Shown: positions 7,454-17,187 of the stretch, piece after piece
Layout of the letters: each line of letters opens with the position of its first letter
How positions within the stretch are numbered: position 1 is the stretch's first letter
From: a virus
Taxonomy: Duplodnaviria; Heunggongvirae; Uroviricota; Caudoviricetes
Length of the DNA stretch: 42,125 bases
IMG/VR virus record: IMGVR_UViG_2537561991_000019
Coordinates: 1 to 42,125 of that record
Direction: 5' to 3' (one strand)
Position numbers and translations under genes: made by a program
Notes under the pieces: model-generated
Database searches by the model: none
Told to the model about the DNA's origin: nothing
What the model saw: the letters and a program-made list of their open reading frames with translations, nothing else

Positions 7454-10400
7454 TACCGATATGCTCCACTTAACCGACCACCATCACGGGCCTGCTGTTG
7501 CATAAAGTCCGCTGCCGCTTTTTTCCCAAGGTCATAAACCACCTTCAGGGCAGCCGGACCTATCTGCCCGTTCGTGCCATCGTTATTGATCTCGATGTTG
7601 TACTGCGGGGCAAACATCGCCATACCTGAACCACCAATATCCGCCACAACCCCCAGCTTACCGTCAGCACCACGACGCAGTGGCAGAATGGCTTCAGGTC
7701 CAGCTTCCCCCATCACACCCGCGCCTTTTGCAAAAGCAAAAAACGTCGGACGGTTAACCACCGTGCCACTGTAGCGACTCAAATCAGCAGACTGATAAAC
7801 ACCGCCATCCGCATTTGGTGTCACACTGGCAGCTGCTGCACTCCCCCAGCCAAACGCCGAACCAATCCCCTTCACTGCCTGCATCATGACCATCTGCGAC
7901 ATGATTTTTGCCAGATCAGAAAGGAGCGAGGCGGTAAAAGATCTGAAGTTCAGTTTTCCGGTGGTACAGAACGTCGCCAGTGCATTACCTGCACTGTTAA
8001 ATGCCGCTGTAAACATCTGCTCAGCGGTACCTGCTGCGTTATCCGCACTCTCTGTAAAATTCTGAAACGCCCGCATGGCACCGTTTTTCCAGTCTGCCTG
8101 CATCAGTTCCTGTTCCTGCCAGTAGCGTCTGTTTTCGTTCAGTTGCCGGTTAAGGCTGTCTGTCAGCATCTGCTCAGCATTCCGGTATTCATCTGTGCCG
8201 TATGTTCCTTTCTGTTTACTGTCACGCTCCAGTTGCTCCATCTGCTGCTGATATTTTTGCTGCAGGCTGAACTGTGTCTGGTACCGCTGACGCTGCTTAT
8301 CTCCCATTCCTGTTGTGGCGATATCCAGGTCATGTTGCTGACGCAGAGCCCGTTCCTCTTCCGCCAGCTGGCTGGCAAGCTGAATGGATTTTTTCTTCAG
8401 GTCATTCAGCGCCGTCTGCTTCTGCAGCTCCTGCTGTTTTGCATCCAGCAGCGTCAGTGCCTGAATCAGCTCATCCTTATGCGCCAGCACGCTTTTTTCA
8501 TCTGCTGTCAGCTTTTTACCCGCCAGGTCACTGATACGCTGCTGCAGGGCCAGAAGCTGCTTATGCGCCTCTGTCATTTTTTCCGTGGTCAGTCCCGCGG
8601 ACTGTCTGGCGGCGGCGATCTGCCCCTCCACCTGCGCCTGCTGCTGACTGTACTGCAACAGCAACCGGGTGGCTTCATCATTGCGGTTTTCAGATGTTTT
8701 TTTCTTAATGGCTTTCTCGTAACGTTCATTTTCACGTTGTATCGCCGCATCCCTGACAGCCTGATCGGCGTACTGCATGGCATTAATACGCGCAATTTCA
8801 CGCTGATGTCGTGCTGCTTCCGTTTCATTCATCCGGTTCAGTGCAGCATTTTCAGCATTACGGCGTTTCTGTTGCTCCTGATAATTCCGCTCTGCCTGCT
8901 CTTTTGCATCCTGCAAATCCTTCTGGCGTTTTTTCTCCTGAAGATCGTTAAGACGCTGCTGATCGTATTCAACCTGAGAAGATGATGCCGTCCAGGGGAG
9001 TCTTTTCGCCCGCGACACTTTCTCCTGTAAAGCGGCAATCTGTTCATCCAGCGAGTCTTCACGACCAATATTCATGGCCGCATCCCAGAAACGACTCCAT
9101 AAATCAGACAGATACTTCAGCGTACTGCCCAGCGCATTGAGGTTATTATCAATATCCGCAGTACGCCGACCGGTTTCCTCTGCCAGTGCAGACATGGCTA
9201 TCCGTGCCGCATCACTGGACCGCCCCTGATCCCCAAGGACGCGTATCTGCTCAAGCTGAGTGGCAGTAAGAAAATGCAGCTCATTGTCCAGAGCCTTCGC
9301 GGCATTTACAGGATCATCCTTCAGCCGCTTAAACTGATTTATGGTATCGCTGACCGACTGGCCAACCGATCGCTCCATCTTTGCGGCAGCTCTCGCCACC
9401 ATACCGATATCGTTTCCACGAAATGCACCACTCCCCACCACCTGAGCCAGCGCACCGGCTGCAGCATGTTGCGTGATACCATTCCCGGAAATAGCACGAC
9501 TGAGCGTCCACAGCTGCCCGGCAGTGACTCCGGCATAATGCCCCGTCAGTGACAGCTGGCGGTTAAATTCTTCCCCCTCCTTCTGACCGTCATACCAGGC
9601 TTTACCCAGACCATAGACGGCCGCGGCAATACCGCCAATAACCCCGCCCAGCATCATGCCTTTCGGTGACATCAATGTGTCTATCCACCCGGCACGGTTA
9701 GCCAGCGTTATTCCGGATCCCCTCAGCGCACCTAAATTTCCGCGGGCCAGTTCACCTATCAGAACGCCTATCTCCTGACGGGCCGCTGCACTTTTCAGAC
9801 CCAGCGAATGCGTGGCTTTTCCTGCCTGCTCCATTTTGCGGATATACACTTCTGCAGCACTGCTTACCCCCAGCTGGGCAGCCTTAGCACGAAGCAACTC
9901 AGAAGAAGAAAGATTCTGGCGGGTTGCCTGCTCTTTAAGCTGACGGATAAACGCCACTTTCTGTCGGGTAGCCTCTTCCTCAGCCTGTGTAAGAACACGG
10001 GTTTTCGCCGTAACCTCAGAAATCAGCGCCAGATAATCCTGCTGACCAATCCCGCCACTGTTTCTGGCCTGTCGGATCTGCTGCTGAATACGCTGTAATT
10101 CCTGCAGCCCCGCACTGGCCTGTTTCACACTGTCAATCTGACGATAAAACGCAGCAGCCGCTTTATCCTGAGCCTCCGCCAGAGCCATGGCCTGCGCCTG
10201 TTCCTCGCGCATTTTCTGGCTCAGCGCCTCCATGCGCTGGCGGGTTTTCTCCACCTCGCGGGCCATGCGTTCATGAGCCTGTGCGTTCTTCTCCACCGTC
10301 TGCGCATGGACGGATGCGGCTGTTGCAGCCGAAGAAGCCGCCTGCGTTGTCTGCCGGGCGGCCTGAGTCTGACGCTCCATAAAACGCTGCATACGGGCAG

Positions 10401-10518
10401 AAGACCGTTCTGCATCGCTGGCTGCACCATTCAGAAGGTTTTTGATACGGGGAATTTCATTTTTAAACTCTGCCGCATCAATCCCCAAATCAATGACCAG
10501 GTTGGCTATCTGGTCCAT
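7453..10518 (-). CDS. H: Tail tape measure protein H
   Basis: Start set at the internal Met (MDQIANLVIDLGIDAAEF) preceded by GGAGG 8 nt upstream. Long coiled-coil-rich middle; C-terminus ...EINNDGTNGQIGPAALKVVYDL... matches the lambda H C-terminus. About 1021 aa. Confidence 0.9.
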   Translation of the reverse strand: MDQIANLVIDLGIDAAEFKNEIPRIKNLLNGAASDAERSSARMQRFMERQTQAARQTTQAASSAATAASVHAQTVEKNAQAHERMAREVEKTRQRMEALSQKMREEQAQAMALAEAQDKAAAAFYRQIDSVKQASAGLQELQRIQQQIRQARNSGGIGQQDYLALISEVTAKTRVLTQAEEEATRQKVAFIRQLKEQATRQNLSSSELLRAKAAQLGVSSAAEVYIRKMEQAGKATHSLGLKSAAARQEIGVLIGELARGNLGALRGSGITLANRAGWIDTLMSPKGMMLGGVIGGIAAAVYGLGKAWYDGQKEGEEFNRQLSLTGHYAGVTAGQLWTLSRAISGNGITQHAAAGALAQVVGSGAFRGNDIGMVARAAAKMERSVGQSVSDTINQFKRLKDDPVNAAKALDNELHFLTATQLEQIRVLGDQGRSSDAARIAMSALAEETGRRTADIDNNLNALGSTLKYLSDLWSRFWDAAMNIGREDSLDEQIAALQEKVSRAKRLPWTASSSQVEYDQQRLNDLQEKKRQKDLQDAKEQAERNYQEQQKRRNAENAALNRMNETEAARHQREIARINAMQYADQAVRDAAIQRENERYEKAIKKKTSENRNDEATRLLLQYSQQQAQVEGQIAAARQSAGLTTEKMTEAHKQLLALQQRISDLAGKKLTADEKSVLAHKDELIQALTLLDAKQQELQKQTALNDLKKKSIQLASQLAEEERALRQQHDLDIATTGMGDKQRQRYQTQFSLQQKYQQQMEQLERDSKQKGTYGTDEYRNAEQMLTDSLNRQLNENRRYWQEQELMQADWKNGAMRAFQNFTESADNAAGTAEQMFTAAFNSAGNALATFCTTGKLNFRSFTASLLSDLAKIMSQMVMMQAVKGIGSAFGWGSAAAASVTPNADGGVYQSADLSRYSGTVVNRPTFFAFAKGAGVMGEAGPEAILPLRRGADGKLGVVADIGGSGMAMFAPQYNIEINNDGTNGQIGPAALKVVYDLGKKAAADFMQQQARDGGRLSGAYR

Positions 10519-10842
10519 AACGCACACCTCCGGAAATACCTTCCCCAAGATGCATCAGTTCTTCGTCCGTTCGCTCCGGTATCCCGTTCTCTTCCGGTAA
10601 AAGGCTGAAATCAGCCACCGCAGCATCACTGCTGCCGGACACCATTCTCACGATCAATGCCTTCAGCGAGGCAAACTGCGCATCCATCCACACATCACTG
10701 AAGCTCTGCATCCGGAAATAATCGCCCCACTCCCCAAGCTCAGTGGCCGACATTTCCGACAGCATCCGCCGCCAGTCTGCCCGCCGGAACTCCCGGGCAA
10801 GCCGCATGACAAACTGCATTTCCCGCGTCAGGACTTTTCCGG
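10490..10842 (-). CDS. T: T segment of the tail assembly chaperone GT, reached by programmed -1 frameshift from G
   Basis: 109-aa ORF in the -1 frame relative to G. The T frame is open from just inside the 3' end of G. A GGAAAAG-type slippery motif sits on the minus strand (plus-strand cttttccgg, 10834-10842) immediately before the G stop. Confidence 0.7.
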
Positions 10843-11214
10843 CGTCAGCACCTCATGCTCCAAATCCCCGGCATTCTCAATGGCTCCCATACCGCTCAGC
10901 GACAGAACCATCTCCGCCCCCGCACCCAGGGCATCATACGACCATGTTGTAATTACGGATGCGCAAAGCGTCTCAACATCCTGAGACTGTTCCGCATTCC
11001 ACAGTGAGCGGGAAACCAGCCAGGCATTGATATCCATCCCCATCCGCAGAAAAGCAATCTGTCGTTCAGCCTCCGGCAGTTCTCCCTCTTCGGCATCAAA
11101 CTTTGCCGTTCGCTGCTGAACAAACGCCAGATATTCAATTCTCTGCAGCCCGGACAGCTCACTGAGCACCACGGACTGCTTTTCATAATTAAACGTGCCC
11201 TGTTTCAGAAACAT
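10828..11214 (-). CDS. G: Tail assembly chaperone G
   Basis: MFLKQGTFNYEKQSVVLSELSGLQRIEYLAF... resembles lambda G; GGTGGAG Shine-Dalgarno upstream of tandem ATGs; position between V and H. Confidence 0.85.
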   Translation of the reverse strand: MFLKQGTFNYEKQSVVLSELSGLQRIEYLAFVQQRTAKFDAEEGELPEAERQIAFLRMGMDINAWLVSRSLWNAEQSQDVETLCASVITTWSYDALGAGAEMVLSLSGMGAIENAGDLEHEVLTPEKS

Positions 11215-11274
11215 CATGTTCTCCACCTGCAAAAAAGCCCCGGATAACCGGGGCAAATGATGAGTATCGTCCTG

Positions 11275-12018
11275 TTAACCTGCGGCGCTGACAGTCACCG
11301 TAGCCACTGCCACAAAATCGCCGTCAGAAGTCATGCCCACAATGCTGACACTGCCCTGCTTCACGCCTTTCACCGTGGCCACAAGCCCGTTCAGGGTCAC
11401 CGTGGCAGTCTGTGGATCTGTCGAATGCACACTGATCGCTTTGTCACTGGCTCCGTCAGGTTTTACTGTAAAGGTCAGCGTGGTGGTTGCTCCCACATTG
11501 ACACTGGCGGATGCCGGTGCCACCGTCAGCCCGGTAACGCCCACAGTTTGAGTGCCCTCCTCTGCCAGATATGGACGCCCCACACCGCTGATTTTCACGG
11601 TGCGGGTCATCACGTCTTTTGAGGCAATGGTTTTACCCAGTGAACTCAGCCAGCCACGGAAAACATCAACAGTGCCGTTGGGATATTTGATACGAAACGC
11701 GCAGACTTCACCGGAGTCGAACAACTGAACCAGTTTTTTCTGCCCGCTGTCACCCGGACGCCAGGCCAGCGTCGCCGAAGTATCACCGACGGATTTCTGC
11801 CCCTGGGTTGTCGTTTTCCAGTCTGCATCTTCATCATCGAGATAAGTGTCATCTTCTGCATCAGCGGTCATTTCGCCAGGTTGCAGATCCTTCACCATCG
11901 CAAGACGCAGCCAGTCAGTGTCCGACAGAGGATTCGCAAACGCATCGCCGTTGCCGGTATACATCCAGAACGTCGTCCCCGCACCTTTCGTCTTTGCCAG
12001 TGGATTTGGTGTGGTCAT
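11275..12018 (-). CDS. V: Major tail protein V with C-terminal Ig-like domain
   Basis: Start at internal Met MTTPNPLAKTKGAGTTFWMYTGNGDAFANPLSD..., closely resembling lambda V; C-terminal Thr/Val-rich Ig-like region. Confidence 0.9.
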   Translation of the reverse strand: MTTPNPLAKTKGAGTTFWMYTGNGDAFANPLSDTDWLRLAMVKDLQPGEMTADAEDDTYLDDEDADWKTTTQGQKSVGDTSATLAWRPGDSGQKKLVQLFDSGEVCAFRIKYPNGTVDVFRGWLSSLGKTIASKDVMTRTVKISGVGRPYLAEEGTQTVGVTGLTVAPASASVNVGATTTLTFTVKPDGASDKAISVHSTDPQTATVTLNGLVATVKGVKQGSVSIVGMTSDGDFVAVATVTVSAAG

Positions 12019-13706: not shown

Positions 13707-15665
13707 TTACGCCGTACATTTCACCAGACCGCGGTGATCAACTGGCGCGACACCGGCGTCAATACGCACTTTCGTTGTCACGCCATCCACACTGAAGCCC
13801 TCCATCTGATCAATATATGGCGTATCCACACCGTTGAGATAAGCCACTTCAATCGTATCGGAGCCTTTTGACGCAGCCAGGTAGAAGGTGGTCTGGCTGT
13901 TATCATCAAGACGAGGCTCTGCAATAACGGTCGCAAAATCTTTCACCGGGTTAATAATACCGGCGTTAATGTCAGCCCCCTTGACACTTGAGGAGCGAAT
14001 GACCTGGTTAGCAACAGACTCCATCGCCGTCGGTACCAGTACGAACGCAGGACGAATATTCAGATGACGCTCCCCCTCTTTCTGAACGCGCATCAACTGG
14101 CGGGCTTTATCCAGCGATGCCACGTCCATTGCAGCGCTCTCCAGTACGTTTGCATGTTTCGCTTTATCGAACAGACTTACATTATCTGTGGAGATTTTCG
14201 GGTTAGACGTCAGAATGGCATAAACCAGATCGGCAATAGTGGATTTCGCCGCACGGCCCAGCTTCATCGGGACATCGGTCAGCATATTCAGATCATCATT
14301 GATAATGGCCTGACGGGTGATACTGAACAGCTCGCCATAGGTCGCCAGTGCAATAGTGGCCTGTTTATCTCCGGTGGTGACGTATTTATATTCCGCCCCT
14401 TCACGCACCTGACGCAGAGCACTGAAGCCCCCCATACCCACACGATGGGCAATTTTAAAATCAGACAACTGACCTTTCCGCGTCCACTGTTCATAGGTTT
14501 CAGGGGCATCTTCCCAGCCCTGCAGAATGGCTTTGTTCGCAACATCCAGCAGAATATTACCGAAGTCAGACGTACTGTGTGTGAACGCCGCACCGACCAT
14601 CTGCATCGGGTTATAACTGGAAATCCCAATACCCCGTTCAGTCAGTGACATACGGGCATATTCACGCAGGGTCATCCCGTTGTAGACATTATCACGTTCG
14701 GTTTTTTCAAATCCGGCACGCGCCATCAGCGCCTGGCGAATCCCGTCCCCCACAAAATTACCGTTACCGGCATAAATATGAGCCGGGGTATTTTTATTGG
14801 ATGGCGTGGACTCGCGCCCCATCTCGTTCAACAGCTTTTCGCGGGCCTGCTCCAGCGAACATTCAGGATCGGCAAGACACTGAGCCTGCAGCGTCTGATA
14901 ACGCCCGCCAAACATGGCAAACAGATCATTAATACCGTTTACACGCGCTTTTTGCTCTGCCAGTACCTGCGCACGGATGCTGTTTTCATCCACCACGGGT
15001 GCTGCTGCCTGCACTGGCGTCCGGGAGGCTGCAGGTTCATCATCCTGTACGCGTGGAGCACTGTTGCGTGGCGGAGTAATCATGTTTCGAATGGATTCCG
15101 GCATCTTTTTAAATTCCTCTGTACGTTTTGACTGAATACATGCCATTGCCTTAACGGCTGGCGTCACCTGATCAGCAAATCCATGTGCCAGACATTCGGC
15201 ACCGGACATCCAGGTCTCATCCGCCAGCATGGCAGCAATTTCATCGGTGGTTTTCCCGGTTTTCTGTGCATAAGCGGGTAACAGAACCGCCTCAACCTTA
15301 TCGAGCAGGTCGGCATAGGTGCGCATGTCCTCCGCATCACCGCCCGTAAAGCCAAATGGTTTATGAATCATCATGAAGGTGTTTTCCGGCATAATGACCG
15401 GGTTTCCCACCATCGCAATGACCGACGCCATTGACGCCGCCACACCGTCGACATAAACGGTAATGGACGCACCATGTGTTTTCAGTGCATTAAAAATGGC
15501 GATGCCTTCAAAGACATCGCCACCCGGTGAATTGATATGGAGATTAATGTGGGTGATATCGCCCAGTGCATTCAGATCACTGATAAACTGCTTCGCTGTA
15601 ACACCCCAGAAACCAATCTCGTCATAAATATAAATATCCGCGTCACTCTGGTGACCAGCCTGCAT
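13707..15665 (-). CDS. Prohead protease (ClpP/S14-like) fused to major capsid protein
   Basis: N-terminal region has a ClpP-like serine protease signature (…INSPGGDVFEGIAIFNALK…MASVIAMVG…MMIHKP…); the C-terminal ~350 aa are capsid-like. Start set at the internal Met MQAGHQSDADIYIYDEIG just after the portal stop. Confidence 0.8.
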   Translation of the reverse strand: MQAGHQSDADIYIYDEIGFWGVTAKQFISDLNALGDITHINLHINSPGGDVFEGIAIFNALKTHGASITVYVDGVAASMASVIAMVGNPVIMPENTFMMIHKPFGFTGGDAEDMRTYADLLDKVEAVLLPAYAQKTGKTTDEIAAMLADETWMSGAECLAHGFADQVTPAVKAMACIQSKRTEEFKKMPESIRNMITPPRNSAPRVQDDEPAASRTPVQAAAPVVDENSIRAQVLAEQKARVNGINDLFAMFGGRYQTLQAQCLADPECSLEQAREKLLNEMGRESTPSNKNTPAHIYAGNGNFVGDGIRQALMARAGFEKTERDNVYNGMTLREYARMSLTERGIGISSYNPMQMVGAAFTHSTSDFGNILLDVANKAILQGWEDAPETYEQWTRKGQLSDFKIAHRVGMGGFSALRQVREGAEYKYVTTGDKQATIALATYGELFSITRQAIINDDLNMLTDVPMKLGRAAKSTIADLVYAILTSNPKISTDNVSLFDKAKHANVLESAAMDVASLDKARQLMRVQKEGERHLNIRPAFVLVPTAMESVANQVIRSSSVKGADINAGIINPVKDFATVIAEPRLDDNSQTTFYLAASKGSDTIEVAYLNGVDTPYIDQMEGFSVDGVTTKVRIDAGVAPVDHRGLVKCTA

Positions 15666-15678
15666 CCTGAACCAAGAA

Positions 15679-17187
15679 TTATTCTTCGGACTGGTCGTCG
15701 GTGTGCTGCGGCTCCTGTCGTTTCGTTGCGGCACTGCTGCCTCCTTTATCACTGGCCGGATCGGTATCAAATACCAGATCCAGCTTGCGGTTTTCATCAA
15801 TTTCGGCCTTGCGCCGACGTTTGACATCATCCGGATTACGACCACCAGCACGTACCCAGTCTGATTCTGTCGCCGCTCCACCACGAATCTGGATTTTCCA
15901 GGCCTCAGCCTCCTTAACAGGGTCAATCCACGGCATCACCGGTCCGGAATACACCGCGGTATACAGTGAAGAACGGTCAAGATCGCGGGGTAGCCTGATA
16001 ACACCGGATGCCACAGCCTGTTTCAGCCAGGCACGATACATCGGGCGGGTGACGGCACCAATAAACCAGTCCTGCAGGATCAGGTAGCCATCTGTGGATT
16101 CAACCAGCTCCTGACGCTGGGCGCTGTAAGTGCCGTTATAGTTGCGTGCCGTACTGGAAAAACTCAGACGACTGCCCGCCGCCACGGCACGCAACTGACC
16201 ATTACGAAAAGTTTCAAGGTTAGGATTGGGACGATCCGACTTCACCATTCCGATTTCTTCGCCGGGTTTCAGATCGTCGTAAATAATGCCTGGCTGAATG
16301 GTAAGCTCGCGTTCATTCTCCTTGCTGCCATTACCATCCGGTTCATAGCTCTGCCCGTCGCCTTTCCGGATGTACATCCCCAGAGCAGCGGCGACCCTTG
16401 CTGCAGTCAGCTCAGAATCTTCATACTCTTTCAGGGCACTGAGGCGGATCAGCACACCGGACAACAAAGACGTCCCGCGCATCTGGTGCAGACGGCGAAC
16501 AAATTTAAGATGCAGCATTCGCTCTGCATCCACTTCTTTGGTTTCCATCTGCCGCCAGGATACGGGACGACTTTTATACACCAGATATTTTTCGGGACGC
16601 CCCCAGTCATCAACAAACACGCCCTGATTCAGCCTGTTGCTCTCATCACTGGTCATGGGAATAAAGTCTGGCTCGAGCGCCTCCAGCCAGAAATGAACAC
16701 CGGCAGAAGGCGTCAGGTTGTTTATGCGCCCGGAAACCATCTGGGCAAACACCTCACCATCGCGCAGCCAGGTACGCAACATCAGACGTTCCAGCATCGG
16801 ACGGGTAAACTGCCCGGTGACTTCCGGGCTGACAGACCATTCACTCCATCGGGTGCGTATCTCCGCTGCCAGATCACGGGCAATGGCCCCATTGCGTAAT
16901 ACCGGATGTGGCTCGACAATAATCCCGTTTTTCCCCACCACCCGTTCTTCCAGCTTGTCAAATACACCAATAACCAGATCGTGGTTGTTATCAAGGTAAC
17001 GGGCCTGCTCACGTAACGACACGGCCCCGTACTGGCTTAACTGGTCGGCAGTTCGGTTTTCCCGCCGGGCTTTGTGTGTCCGCGTCGTTTTTACGGCCTC
17101 ATAAGCCTGGATCACCGCACGGGAACGCAGCCTTGCCGCTTTCCATCCTGGTGAAAAAACGCCAATCACATCATCAAGAATTGCCAT
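15679..17187 (-). CDS. Portal protein
   Basis: About 502 aa between W and the protease/capsid gene. Start ATG overlaps the W stop as TGATG (checked at 17185-17189). Confidence 0.85.
   Translation of the reverse strand: MAILDDVIGVFSPGWKAARLRSRAVIQAYEAVKTTRTHKARRENRTADQLSQYGAVSLREQARYLDNNHDLVIGVFDKLEERVVGKNGIIVEPHPVLRNGAIARDLAAEIRTRWSEWSVSPEVTGQFTRPMLERLMLRTWLRDGEVFAQMVSGRINNLTPSAGVHFWLEALEPDFIPMTSDESNRLNQGVFVDDWGRPEKYLVYKSRPVSWRQMETKEVDAERMLHLKFVRRLHQMRGTSLLSGVLIRLSALKEYEDSELTAARVAAALGMYIRKGDGQSYEPDGNGSKENERELTIQPGIIYDDLKPGEEIGMVKSDRPNPNLETFRNGQLRAVAAGSRLSFSSTARNYNGTYSAQRQELVESTDGYLILQDWFIGAVTRPMYRAWLKQAVASGVIRLPRDLDRSSLYTAVYSGPVMPWIDPVKEAEAWKIQIRGGAATESDWVRAGGRNPDDVKRRRKAEIDENRKLDLVFDTDPASDKGGSSAATKRQEPQHTDDQSEE

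What the first reader, a model, noticed from the sequence alone, without database searches (positions are those of the whole stretch)
10825..10845. Programmed -1 frameshift site for the G/GT tail chaperone uses GGAAAAG rather than the lambda GGGAAAG
The T frame is -1 relative to G and opens just inside the 3' end of G. The only slippery-looking heptamer before the G stop is CCG-GAA-AAG (plus-strand cttttccgg, 10834-10842), a variant of the lambda slippery sequence. This is the expected conserved G/GT mechanism, but the variant site may shift with different efficiency.
Basis: partly seen in the sequence, partly recalled or inferred. Interest (0 to 1): 0.35.

Follow-up and report, generated by a model that had tools for sequence, protein, structure and literature searches.

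The report
Known-type tail chaperone frameshift site
This is the usual phage tail-chaperone G/GT programmed -1 frameshift of a lambda-like E. coli prophage; its GGAAAAG slip sequence is real and strongly conserved, but phage N15's record already annotates the same sequence, so it is ordinary.

Summary
On the minus strand, gene G (Pfam Phage_TAC_2) ends CCG GAA AAG TCC TGA. The T reading frame (Pfam Phage_tail_T) is -1 and opens 22 nt before the G stop. G_GAA_AAG (10840..10834) is the only place in that overlap where a tRNA can re-pair.

- The predicted 241-aa GT fusion aligns without a break to lambda GT, junction lysine on junction lysine.
- C-GGAAAAG is invariant in 22 non-redundant relatives although the preceding linker is hypervariable.
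- The annotated T start codon is missing in half of them.

It is not new. The N15 GenBank record marks GGAAAAG, in the same frame, as "slippery sequence for -1 translational frameshift". 22 of 23 N15-type lineages keep it, and Gifsy-2 annotates its T homolog as part of a frameshift hybrid.

Published work treats G_GAA_AAG as less slippery than G_GGA_AAG. One possibly new detail is a Shine-Dalgarno-like GAGGTG 8-10 nt upstream. It is enriched in this clade (18/22) and absent in lambda and N15-type genes. No conserved downstream structure was found.

RefSeq annotates G and T as separate genes in the sampled records; 1,847 of 5,426 complete E. coli genomes carry this allele.

The parts
10828..11214 (-). 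Gene G, tail assembly chaperone (128 aa plus stop TGA at 10830-10828)
   Evidence: Pfam Phage_TAC_2, E=1.7e-39. RefSeq annotates the identical gene as gpG, phage tail assembly chaperone G.
10834..10840 (-). Slip site G_GAA_AAG. Zero frame reads CCG GAA AAG (P-E-K); the -1 frame reads GGA AAA G (G-K).
   Evidence: Read directly from the sequence. Invariant in 22 of 22 non-redundant lineages. The same heptamer in the same frame is annotated as the slippery sequence in phage N15.
10849..10854 (-). Shine-Dalgarno-like GAGGTG, 8 nt upstream of the heptamer (GAGG core 10 nt upstream); candidate 5' stimulator
   Evidence: Anti-SD duplex energy is -9.3 kcal/mol, in the best 2% of positions in this G gene. 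The clade shows a positional peak at 7-10 nt spacing. Synonymous recoding gives P=0.007. At codon -4, GAG:GAA is 15:1 against 113:116 elsewhere. The function is inferred, not shown.
10853..10855 (-). Last stop codon (TGA) in the -1 frame upstream of the slip site; it sets the 5' limit of the G/T overlap
   Evidence: Three-frame translation and overlap length of 22 nt.
10490..10834 (-). T-frame segment read after the shift (VLTREMQFVMRLAREF...GPDSQPGH, stop at 10492-10490)
   Evidence: Pfam Phage_tail_T, E=5.1e-15. Aligns to the lambda T part of GT.
10490..11214 (-). Predicted GT fusion product, 241 aa, junction ...LTPEK|VLTRE...
   Evidence: BLASTP against lambda GT gives E=4e-42 and is collinear through the junction. 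The junction K aligns with the lambda junction K, and both have 5 residues before the conserved (L/M)xF..LARE motif.
10817..10819 (-). ATG used by GenBank/RefSeq as the start of a separate T gene; probably not a real start
   Evidence: Present in only 11 of 22 lineages (ATT, CTG, CTT, CAA, CGG and others elsewhere). The best anti-SD energy upstream is -0.7 kcal/mol. Gene callers place the T start 6-60 nt after the G stop in different relatives, and 4 nt inside G in one.
11278..12018 (-). Gene V, major tail tube protein (upstream neighbour)
   Evidence: Pfam Phage_TTP_12 at 1.2e-66, plus Big_2.
7456..10518 (-). Gene H, tape measure protein (downstream neighbour); its start overlaps the end of T
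   Evidence: Pfam TMP_2, TMP_4 and Tape_meas_lam_C.

Best explanation
The window carries the tail genes of a cdtI/mEp460/phi458-like lambdoid prophage of E. coli. Most ribosomes translating G stop at TGA and make the 128-aa chaperone G.

A minority slip back one nucleotide with GAA in the P site and AAG in the A site. tRNA-Lys moves from AAG to the cognate AAA. tRNA-Glu moves from GAA to GGA, tolerating a G.U in the middle position. Alternatively, only the A-site tRNA slips. Translation then continues in the T frame to give a 241-aa GT fusion (...LTPEK-VLTRE...).

By analogy with lambda, GT links the tape-measure-bound G coat to the tail tube protein V. This role is inferred from homology.

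G_GAA_AAG is intrinsically weaker than lambda's G_GGA_AAG. I infer, with less confidence, that the GAGGTG 8-10 nt upstream pairs with the 16S rRNA 3' end in the elongating ribosome, as in dnaX and IS911, and raises the slip frequency. That spacing is near or just under the low end of the published 9-14 nt range.

What is shown: gene identities, frames, site, conservation, and enrichment of the SD-like element. What is inferred: that the shift occurs, its rate, and the role of the SD-like element.
For: - **Gene identity and order.** G is Phage_TAC_2, T is Phage_tail_T, and they sit between V and H.
- **Frames.** The T frame is -1 and opens 22 nt before the G stop. A_AAG is the only cognate re-pairing site there.
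- **Fusion.** The predicted GT is collinear with lambda GT, E=4e-42, with the junction lysines aligned.
- **Protein-level conservation.** Nearly all of the 120 listed G homologs (54-100% identity) end in PEK(S/P/F) after a hypervariable linker. The exceptions are truncated, frame-shifted or internally deleted entries.
- **Nucleotide-level conservation.** At the site, GAA is 22:0 against 117 GAA:128 GAG elsewhere. AAG is 22:0 against 62 AAA:26 AAG elsewhere. The third base of the preceding codon is G in 22 of 22.
- **No conserved T start.** The annotated T start is absent in 11 of 22 lineages and has no SD.
- **Precedent.** N15 annotates GGAAAAG as its slippery sequence. 22 of 23 N15-type lineages keep it. 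Gifsy-2 and HK225 annotate the T homolog as part of, or similar to, a frameshift product.
- **SD-like element.** There is a positional peak of anti-SD complementarity. 18 of 22 lineages are at or below -4.5 kcal/mol against 34% of gene-body positions. Recoding gives P=0.007 and GAG:GAA is 15:1. Lambda and the N15 type lack it. The published spacing for -1 stimulation is 9-14 nt (PMC5009743).
Against: - No experimental data exist for this phage or its near-identical relatives.
- G GAA AAG gave mainly zero-frame product in a reconstituted system (PMC6924986).
- Tetramer motifs without a stimulator gave about 0.15% in vivo (PMC4066793).
- No conserved downstream structure was found: single-sequence z=-0.84, and consensus energy -3.2 kcal/mol.
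- The SD-like statistics treat related lineages as independent.
- 4 of 22 lineages lack a good SD match. The whole N15-type clade conserves the same heptamer without one, so the element is not required in general.
- A Met codon 33 nt downstream of the heptamer start is conserved in 20 of 22 lineages and could in principle start a shorter T.
Confidence: 0.85

Rival explanations
1. T is an independent gene translated from its own ATG (10819), as GenBank and RefSeq annotate it. No frameshift is needed.
For: An ATG in the T frame lies 9 nt after the G stop. Phage records and PGAP annotate G and T as separate CDS.
Against: - That ATG is missing in 11 of 22 lineages, and its best upstream anti-SD energy is -0.7 kcal/mol.
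- Gene callers pick inconsistent T starts in relatives.
- An independent start would not explain the three invariant synonymous positions in CCG GAA AAG.
- It would not explain why the T frame always stays open back across the heptamer.
- In lambda, T is made only as the GT fusion (PMC5009743).
Confidence: 0.06
2. The P-E-K ending is conserved because the G protein needs those residues, and the heptamer is a by-product.
For: PEK is conserved at the protein level in nearly all homologs.
Against: - Codon choice is fixed as well. GAA and AAG are each 22:0 although AAG is the minority Lys codon elsewhere (26 against 62), and the preceding third base is always G.
- The preceding residue differs between clades (P, A, L, V) while G_GAA_AAG is kept.
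- The following residue varies (S, P, F, Y).
Confidence: 0.03
3. GT arises by RNA polymerase slippage on the A run rather than by ribosomal slippage.
For: The site contains a short A run (AAAA).
Against: Four A residues is shorter than the runs I recall supporting productive transcriptional slippage; this rests on my own knowledge and was not checked against a paper here. The conserved flanking G and G fit tRNA re-pairing, not polymerase slippage. The homologous lambda site (GGGAAAG) has only three A residues and is treated in the review read here as ribosomal -1 frameshifting (PMC5009743).
Confidence: 0.02
4. The frameshift is real, but the upstream GAGG is not a stimulator. It is a by-product of an acidic linker (Glu followed by Ala or Val) and shared ancestry.
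For: - The linker is rich in GAx and GGx codons, and 34% of gene-body positions already reach -4.5 kcal/mol.
- Synonymous recoding still gives 57%.
- The lineages are related.
- The N15-type clade uses the same heptamer with no SD-like element.
Against: - The peak is positional, at 7-10 nt, within a linker that is otherwise variable.
- GAG:GAA is 15:1 at codon -4 against 113:116 elsewhere, Fisher 3e-4.
- Several different sequence contexts produce the match: GAGGTG, GGAGGCT, AAGGAGGTG, CAGGAGGAT, AGGTGA.
Confidence: 0.5

Closest known systems
Bacteriophage lambda G/GT programmed -1 frameshift (G_GGA_AAG)
   Same: The genes are homologous (Phage_TAC_2, Phage_tail_T) and in the same order, V-G-T-H. 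The -1 relationship is the same. The slip site is at the homologous position: the junction K aligns and 5 residues precede the conserved T motif.
   Different: One base differs (GGGAAAG against GGAAAAG), so the P-site codon is GAA (Glu) and not GGA (Gly), and re-pairing needs a G.U at the middle position. G ends 1 codon after the site and not 6. An SD-like GAGGTG lies upstream here; lambda has none.
Phage N15 genes 14/15 and the N15-type clade (HK225, mEp237 and others)
   Same: The heptamer GGAAAAG is identical and in the same frame. N15 annotates it explicitly as 'slippery sequence for -1 translational frameshift'. It is conserved in 22 of 23 lineages.
   Different: G is only distantly related. 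The N15 type keeps the lambda-like 6-codon tail (CCC TCG CCA GTG AGC TGA) after the site. It has no upstream SD-like element: mean -2.0 against -6.9 kcal/mol.
Salmonella phage Gifsy-2 gpG/gpT homologs
   Same: It belongs to the same clade (54% identity for GT). It has the same CCGGAAAAGTCCTGA and GAGG 10 nt upstream. Its T homolog is annotated as part of a frameshift hybrid protein.
   Different: The linker and T sequences differ, and the slip site itself is not marked in that record.
E. coli dnaX and IS911 -1 frameshift cassettes
   Same: The A-site codon is AAG, read by the single tRNA-Lys. An internal Shine-Dalgarno-like sequence lies near the published 9-14 nt spacing upstream (PMC5009743; PMC6924986).
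   Different: dnaX has the fully slippery A_AAA_AAG and a strong 3' stem-loop. No conserved 3' structure was found here. The stimulatory role of the SD-like element here is untested.
NNA_AAG / A_AAG single-tRNA -1 sites (IS1222 G_CGA_AAG, Bacillus cdd A_CGA_AAG)
   Same: The shift relies on A_AAG with a P-site codon that cannot re-pair cognately (PMC5009743).
   Different: The P-site codon here is GAA and not CGA. The efficiency for GAA_AAG in vivo could not be retrieved; the paper by Licznar and colleagues is not held.

Membership tests
Lambda-type G/GT tail assembly chaperone frameshift | Two overlapping ORFs located between the major tail protein gene and the tape measure gene | tested here: met
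   The order V (Phage_TTP_12), G, T, H (TMP_2, Tape_meas_lam_C) is found on the minus strand.
Lambda-type G/GT tail assembly chaperone frameshift | The upstream ORF is homologous to gpG and the downstream ORF to gpT | tested here: met
   Phage_TAC_2 at 1.7e-39 and Phage_tail_T at 5.1e-15. The fusion aligns to lambda GT at 4e-42.
Lambda-type G/GT tail assembly chaperone frameshift | The downstream ORF is in the -1 frame, opens inside the 3' end of G, and has no conserved start of its own | tested here: met
   There is a 22-nt overlap. The annotated ATG is absent in 11 of 22 lineages and has no SD.
Lambda-type G/GT tail assembly chaperone frameshift | Canonical X_XXY_YYZ slippery heptamer in the overlap | tested here: not met
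   G_GAA_AAG has XXY = GAA. Only the A-site A_AAG re-pairs cognately, and the P site needs a middle-position G.U. This is the same departure as in N15.
Lambda-type G/GT tail assembly chaperone frameshift | The slip site is conserved among relatives beyond what protein coding requires | tested here: met
   Invariant in 22 of 22 lineages, including three synonymous positions.
Lambda-type G/GT tail assembly chaperone frameshift | A GT fusion protein is made at a low fixed ratio to G and is required for tail assembly | not testable with these tools
   This needs protein detection and genetics. It is known for lambda only (PMC5009743).
SD-stimulated bacterial -1 frameshift (dnaX / IS911 type) | Anti-SD-complementary sequence 9-14 nt 5' of the shift site | tested here: met
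   GAGGTG lies at 10854-10849 with -9.3 kcal/mol; the GAGG core is 10 nt upstream. 18 of 22 lineages are at or below -4.5 kcal/mol. The spacing rule is from PMC5009743.
SD-stimulated bacterial -1 frameshift (dnaX / IS911 type) | The SD-like element raises frameshift frequency through pairing with 16S rRNA | not testable with these tools
   This requires reporter assays with SD and anti-SD mutants.
SD-stimulated bacterial -1 frameshift (dnaX / IS911 type) | 3' stem-loop or pseudoknot 5-9 nt after the shift site | tested here: not met
   The downstream 90 nt fold no better than shuffles (z=-0.84). The consensus structure of 21 lineages is -3.2 kcal/mol with no helix near the site. There was no Rfam hit.

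The most novel reading that the evidence does not exclude
Within one homologous G/GT cassette, the stimulatory context has been swapped. Lambda and N15-type genes keep a conserved 3' segment (TCG CCA GTG AGC TGA) after the slip site. The cdtI/mEp460/Gifsy-2 clade, to which this window belongs, terminates G one codon after a weak G_GAA_AAG. It has instead acquired a dnaX-like internal Shine-Dalgarno element 8-10 nt upstream that sets the G:GT ratio.
Probability: 0.35. Interest if true: 0.45.

Novelty: new member of a known kind. Interest (0 to 1): 0.22.

Why it matters
**Annotation.** This G/T allele sits in 1,847 of 5,426 complete E. coli genomes. Every record examined in detail (Ayreon, mEp460, one RefSeq E. 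coli chromosome) lists G and T as two separate proteins with an arbitrary T start, and the feature names of the other near-identical phage records do the same. The real product is very probably a 241-aa GT fusion.

**Biology.** The mechanism and even the heptamer are already known, so little changes. The one open point is how a sequence that biochemists use as a poorly slippery control is kept as the productive site across two large phage clades. The clade-specific SD-like element offers a cheap, testable answer for one of them.

Tried and rejected
- **Downstream stimulatory structure.** The single-sequence fold was no better than shuffles. The consensus fold of 21 lineages was essentially unstructured. 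A 5-bp long-range pairing (alignment columns 24-28 with 119-123) shows two-state covariation only between the E. coli and Salmonella groups, so I did not accept it.
- **Rfam.** No match.
- **Finding diverse relatives.** The first viral-contig scan returned only near-identical copies. The genome-contig scan gave only 12 loci. Diversity had to come from look-ups of individual homologs and further scans.
- **Literature.** Searches for G GAA AAG in a phage-tail context found nothing specific. The paper by Licznar and colleagues on NNA_AAG motifs was not held, and the paper by Xu and colleagues on tail frameshifts could not be consulted: it appears only as a reference in papers read here. Their tables could not be checked.
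- **Other ideas rejected.** Transcriptional slippage, and independent initiation of T at 10819 (see the rival explanations).
- **Database G-T fusion proteins.** P0032 and P0049 turned out to be internal-deletion alleles, not evidence on the junction.

Full report
**What is there.** On the minus strand the window encodes a lambda-like tail module.
- V runs 11278-12018 (Phage_TTP_12 plus Big_2).
- G runs 11214-10828 (Phage_TAC_2, E=1.7e-39).
- An ORF in the -1 frame matches Phage_tail_T (E=5.1e-15).
- The tape measure gene H starts at 10518.

The region is 98-99% identical to E. coli phages phi458, Ayreon, mEp460 and cdtI. This allele is present in 1,847 of 5,426 complete E. coli genomes.

**Check of the observation.** G ends ...GAG GTG CTG ACG CCG GAA AAG TCC TGA.
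- The heptamer GGAAAAG is at 10840..10834 and the stop at 10830..10828.
- The -1 frame has a TGA at 10855-10853 and is open from 10852 to 10493. The overlap with G is therefore 22 nt.
- Of the seven zero-frame codons in that overlap, only AAG can re-pair cognately one base back (AAA). GAA re-pairs to GGA with a G.U in the middle position.
- GGAAAAG alone is not unusual: 7 copies in the window against 6.1 expected. Its significance comes from position and conservation.

**Homology of the site.** Joining G through AAG to the -1 frame gives a 241-aa protein. It aligns to lambda GT over its whole length without a gap at the junction (E=4e-42). The junction lysine falls on lambda's junction lysine, and five residues follow in both before the conserved (L/M)xF..LARE motif of T. 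The site is thus the positional homolog of lambda's G_GGA_AAG and differs by one base.

**Conservation.**
- Nearly all of the 120 listed G homologs (54-100% identity) end in (T/S)PEK(S/P/F), although the preceding 20 or so residues are hypervariable. The exceptions are truncated, frame-shifted or internally deleted entries.
- I assembled 22 non-redundant lineages (<97% identity around the site) from E. coli, Shigella, Salmonella, Citrobacter and Symbiopectobacterium.
- All 22 have C-GGAAAAG, then one sense codon, then a stop.
- Codon choice is fixed: GAA 22:0 against 117 GAA:128 GAG elsewhere in the same genes, and AAG 22:0 against 62 AAA:26 AAG elsewhere. The third base of the preceding codon is always G. 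The 12 codons upstream show 6-14 different codons per position.
- The ATG that databases use as the T start (10819) is absent in 11 of 22 lineages and has no Shine-Dalgarno sequence (-0.7 kcal/mol). Gene callers place the T start 6-60 nt after the G stop in different relatives, and 4 nt inside G in one.

These facts fit a selected recoding site and do not fit an independent T gene.

**Is the variant new? No.**
- The GenBank record of phage N15 carries a misc_feature 'slippery sequence for -1 translational frameshift' at 10027-10033. That sequence is GGAAAAG in the frame GCG GAA AAG.
- In 23 non-redundant N15-type lineages the heptamer is kept in 22, with the preceding codon GCG, CTG or GTG.
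- HK225 labels its T homolog 'tail assembly protein GT'.
- Gifsy-2 belongs to the window's own clade and has CCGGAAAAGTCCTGA. Its record labels the T homolog 'part of G+G' frameshift hybrid protein'.
- PRFect also lists a 'twofour' motif class, which by its naming scheme (a base repeated twice, then another repeated four times) would include GGAAAA, among annotated tail chaperone frameshifts (PMC10885494).
- What is missing is annotation. The three records examined in detail (Ayreon, mEp460, one RefSeq E. coli chromosome) list G and T separately.

**How slippery is it?**
- Peng et al. 2019 chose AUG GAA AAG as the unfavourable comparison to G GGA AAG, because tRNA-Glu would face a second-position mismatch on GGA. 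They saw mainly zero-frame product (PMC6924986).
- Sharma et al. 2014 found tetramer motifs without a stimulator to be about 0.15%, barely above background. A_AAG was the best tetramer, at 5.6% with a strong pseudoknot (PMC4066793).
- The review by Atkins et al. describes productive use of NNA_AAG sites (IS1222, cdd) whose efficiency depends on the 5' codon (PMC5009743).
It raises the question of what helps the site.

**Search for stimulators: downstream.**
- The 90 nt after the site fold no better than shuffled sequence (z=-0.84).
- The consensus fold of 21 lineages is -3.2 kcal/mol with no helix next to the site.
- Rfam finds nothing.

**Search for stimulators: upstream.**
- The window has GAGGTG at 10854-10849, 8 nt from the heptamer; the GAGG core is 10 nt away.
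- Its predicted pairing to the 16S 3' end is -9.3 kcal/mol, in the best 2% of positions in its gene.
- Across the 22 lineages, anti-SD complementarity peaks for 8-mers ending 7-10 nt upstream. The mean there is -6.1 to -6.4 kcal/mol against -2 to -4 elsewhere in the linker.
- 18 of 22 lineages reach -4.5 kcal/mol, against 34% of gene-body positions.
- Synonymous recoding of the eight upstream codons gives a mean of -5.4 +/- 0.6 against -6.9 observed (P=0.007).
- The Glu codon four codons before the Pro is GAG 15 times and GAA once, against 113:116 elsewhere (Fisher 3e-4).
- Lambda has nothing comparable (at best -2.1 kcal/mol). Neither does the N15-type clade (mean -2.0; 2 of 23).
- The published spacing for SD stimulation of -1 shifts is 9-14 nt (PMC5009743).

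**Caveats on the SD-like element.** The lineages are related. The linker is acidic and G-rich, so chance matches are common. Four lineages lack the element. The N15-type clade shows the heptamer can be maintained without it. I rate the SD-like stimulator at roughly even odds.

**Mechanism proposed.**
1. Ribosomes reach GAA (P site) and AAG (A site).
2. A small fraction shift -1. This happens either as a tandem slip, with near-cognate tRNA-Glu on GGA and cognate tRNA-Lys on AAA, or as a slip of tRNA-Lys alone.
3. They then read GUC CUG ACG..., producing ...LTPEK-VLTREMQF....
4. All routes give the same peptide, so sequence analysis cannot separate them.
5. The remaining ribosomes read UCC and terminate at UGA.

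The role of GT (its G part binds the tape measure, its T part recruits V) is taken from lambda (PMC5009743) and inferred here from homology.

**Verdict.** The variant heptamer is already annotated in N15 and widespread, so this is an ordinary member of a known system with an annotation gap. The only possibly new element is the clade-specific upstream SD-like sequence.

Noticed in passing
window 11231-11254 (minus strand): A strong intrinsic-terminator-like hairpin (GCCCCGG TTAT CCGGGGC followed by TTTTTT) lies between V and G. It is annotated as a terminator in the Ayreon and mEp460 records, and N15 and HK225 have a stem-loop at the same place. It would lower G/GT/H transcription relative to V.
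   Followed up: partly
L108-L111 (viral contigs, G about 40% identical): A third clade ends G with CTG GCA AAA TAG, and the T frame reads GGC AAA ATA. The site is G_GCA_AAA directly abutting the stop codon, another non-canonical A_AAA-type site.
   Followed up: partly
L285-L365 (N15-type loci) and L083 (lambda): After the slip site, N15-type genes and lambda share a nearly invariant TCG (C/A)C(A/G) G(T/C)G AGC TGA segment that the window's clade lacks. It could be a 3' element or just dual-coding constraint.
   Followed up: no
proteins P0032 and P0049: Two database proteins are in-frame G-T fusions created by internal deletions. One example is ...SYDA|GKVLTREMQF..., which enters the T frame upstream of the heptamer. 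They are probably from decaying prophages.
   Followed up: partly
alignment A2, columns 24-28 with 119-123 (window about 10846-10850 with 10751-10755): A 5-bp long-range pairing brackets the slip site, with both-sides changes between the E. coli-type and Salmonella-type sequences. There are only two states, so this is at most one compensatory event, and I did not accept it as structure.
   Followed up: partly
L084 and L089 (genome contigs): Contigs labelled 'MAG: Bacillota bacterium' and 'MAG: Proteobacteria bacterium' carry this E. coli prophage G gene at 99% and 94% identity. This suggests mis-binned or contaminating Enterobacteriaceae prophage DNA.
   Followed up: no
window 10490-10518 (minus strand): The tape measure gene H starts (ATG at 10518) 29 nt before the T-frame stop, so the end of GT and the start of H overlap. 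The longest ORF call begins further upstream at a TTG (10548).
   Followed up: no
window 13707-15926 (minus strand): A 739-aa ORF lies upstream of the tail genes. From its length and position I guessed it to be a head protease-capsid fusion, but it was not checked against any library.
   Followed up: no
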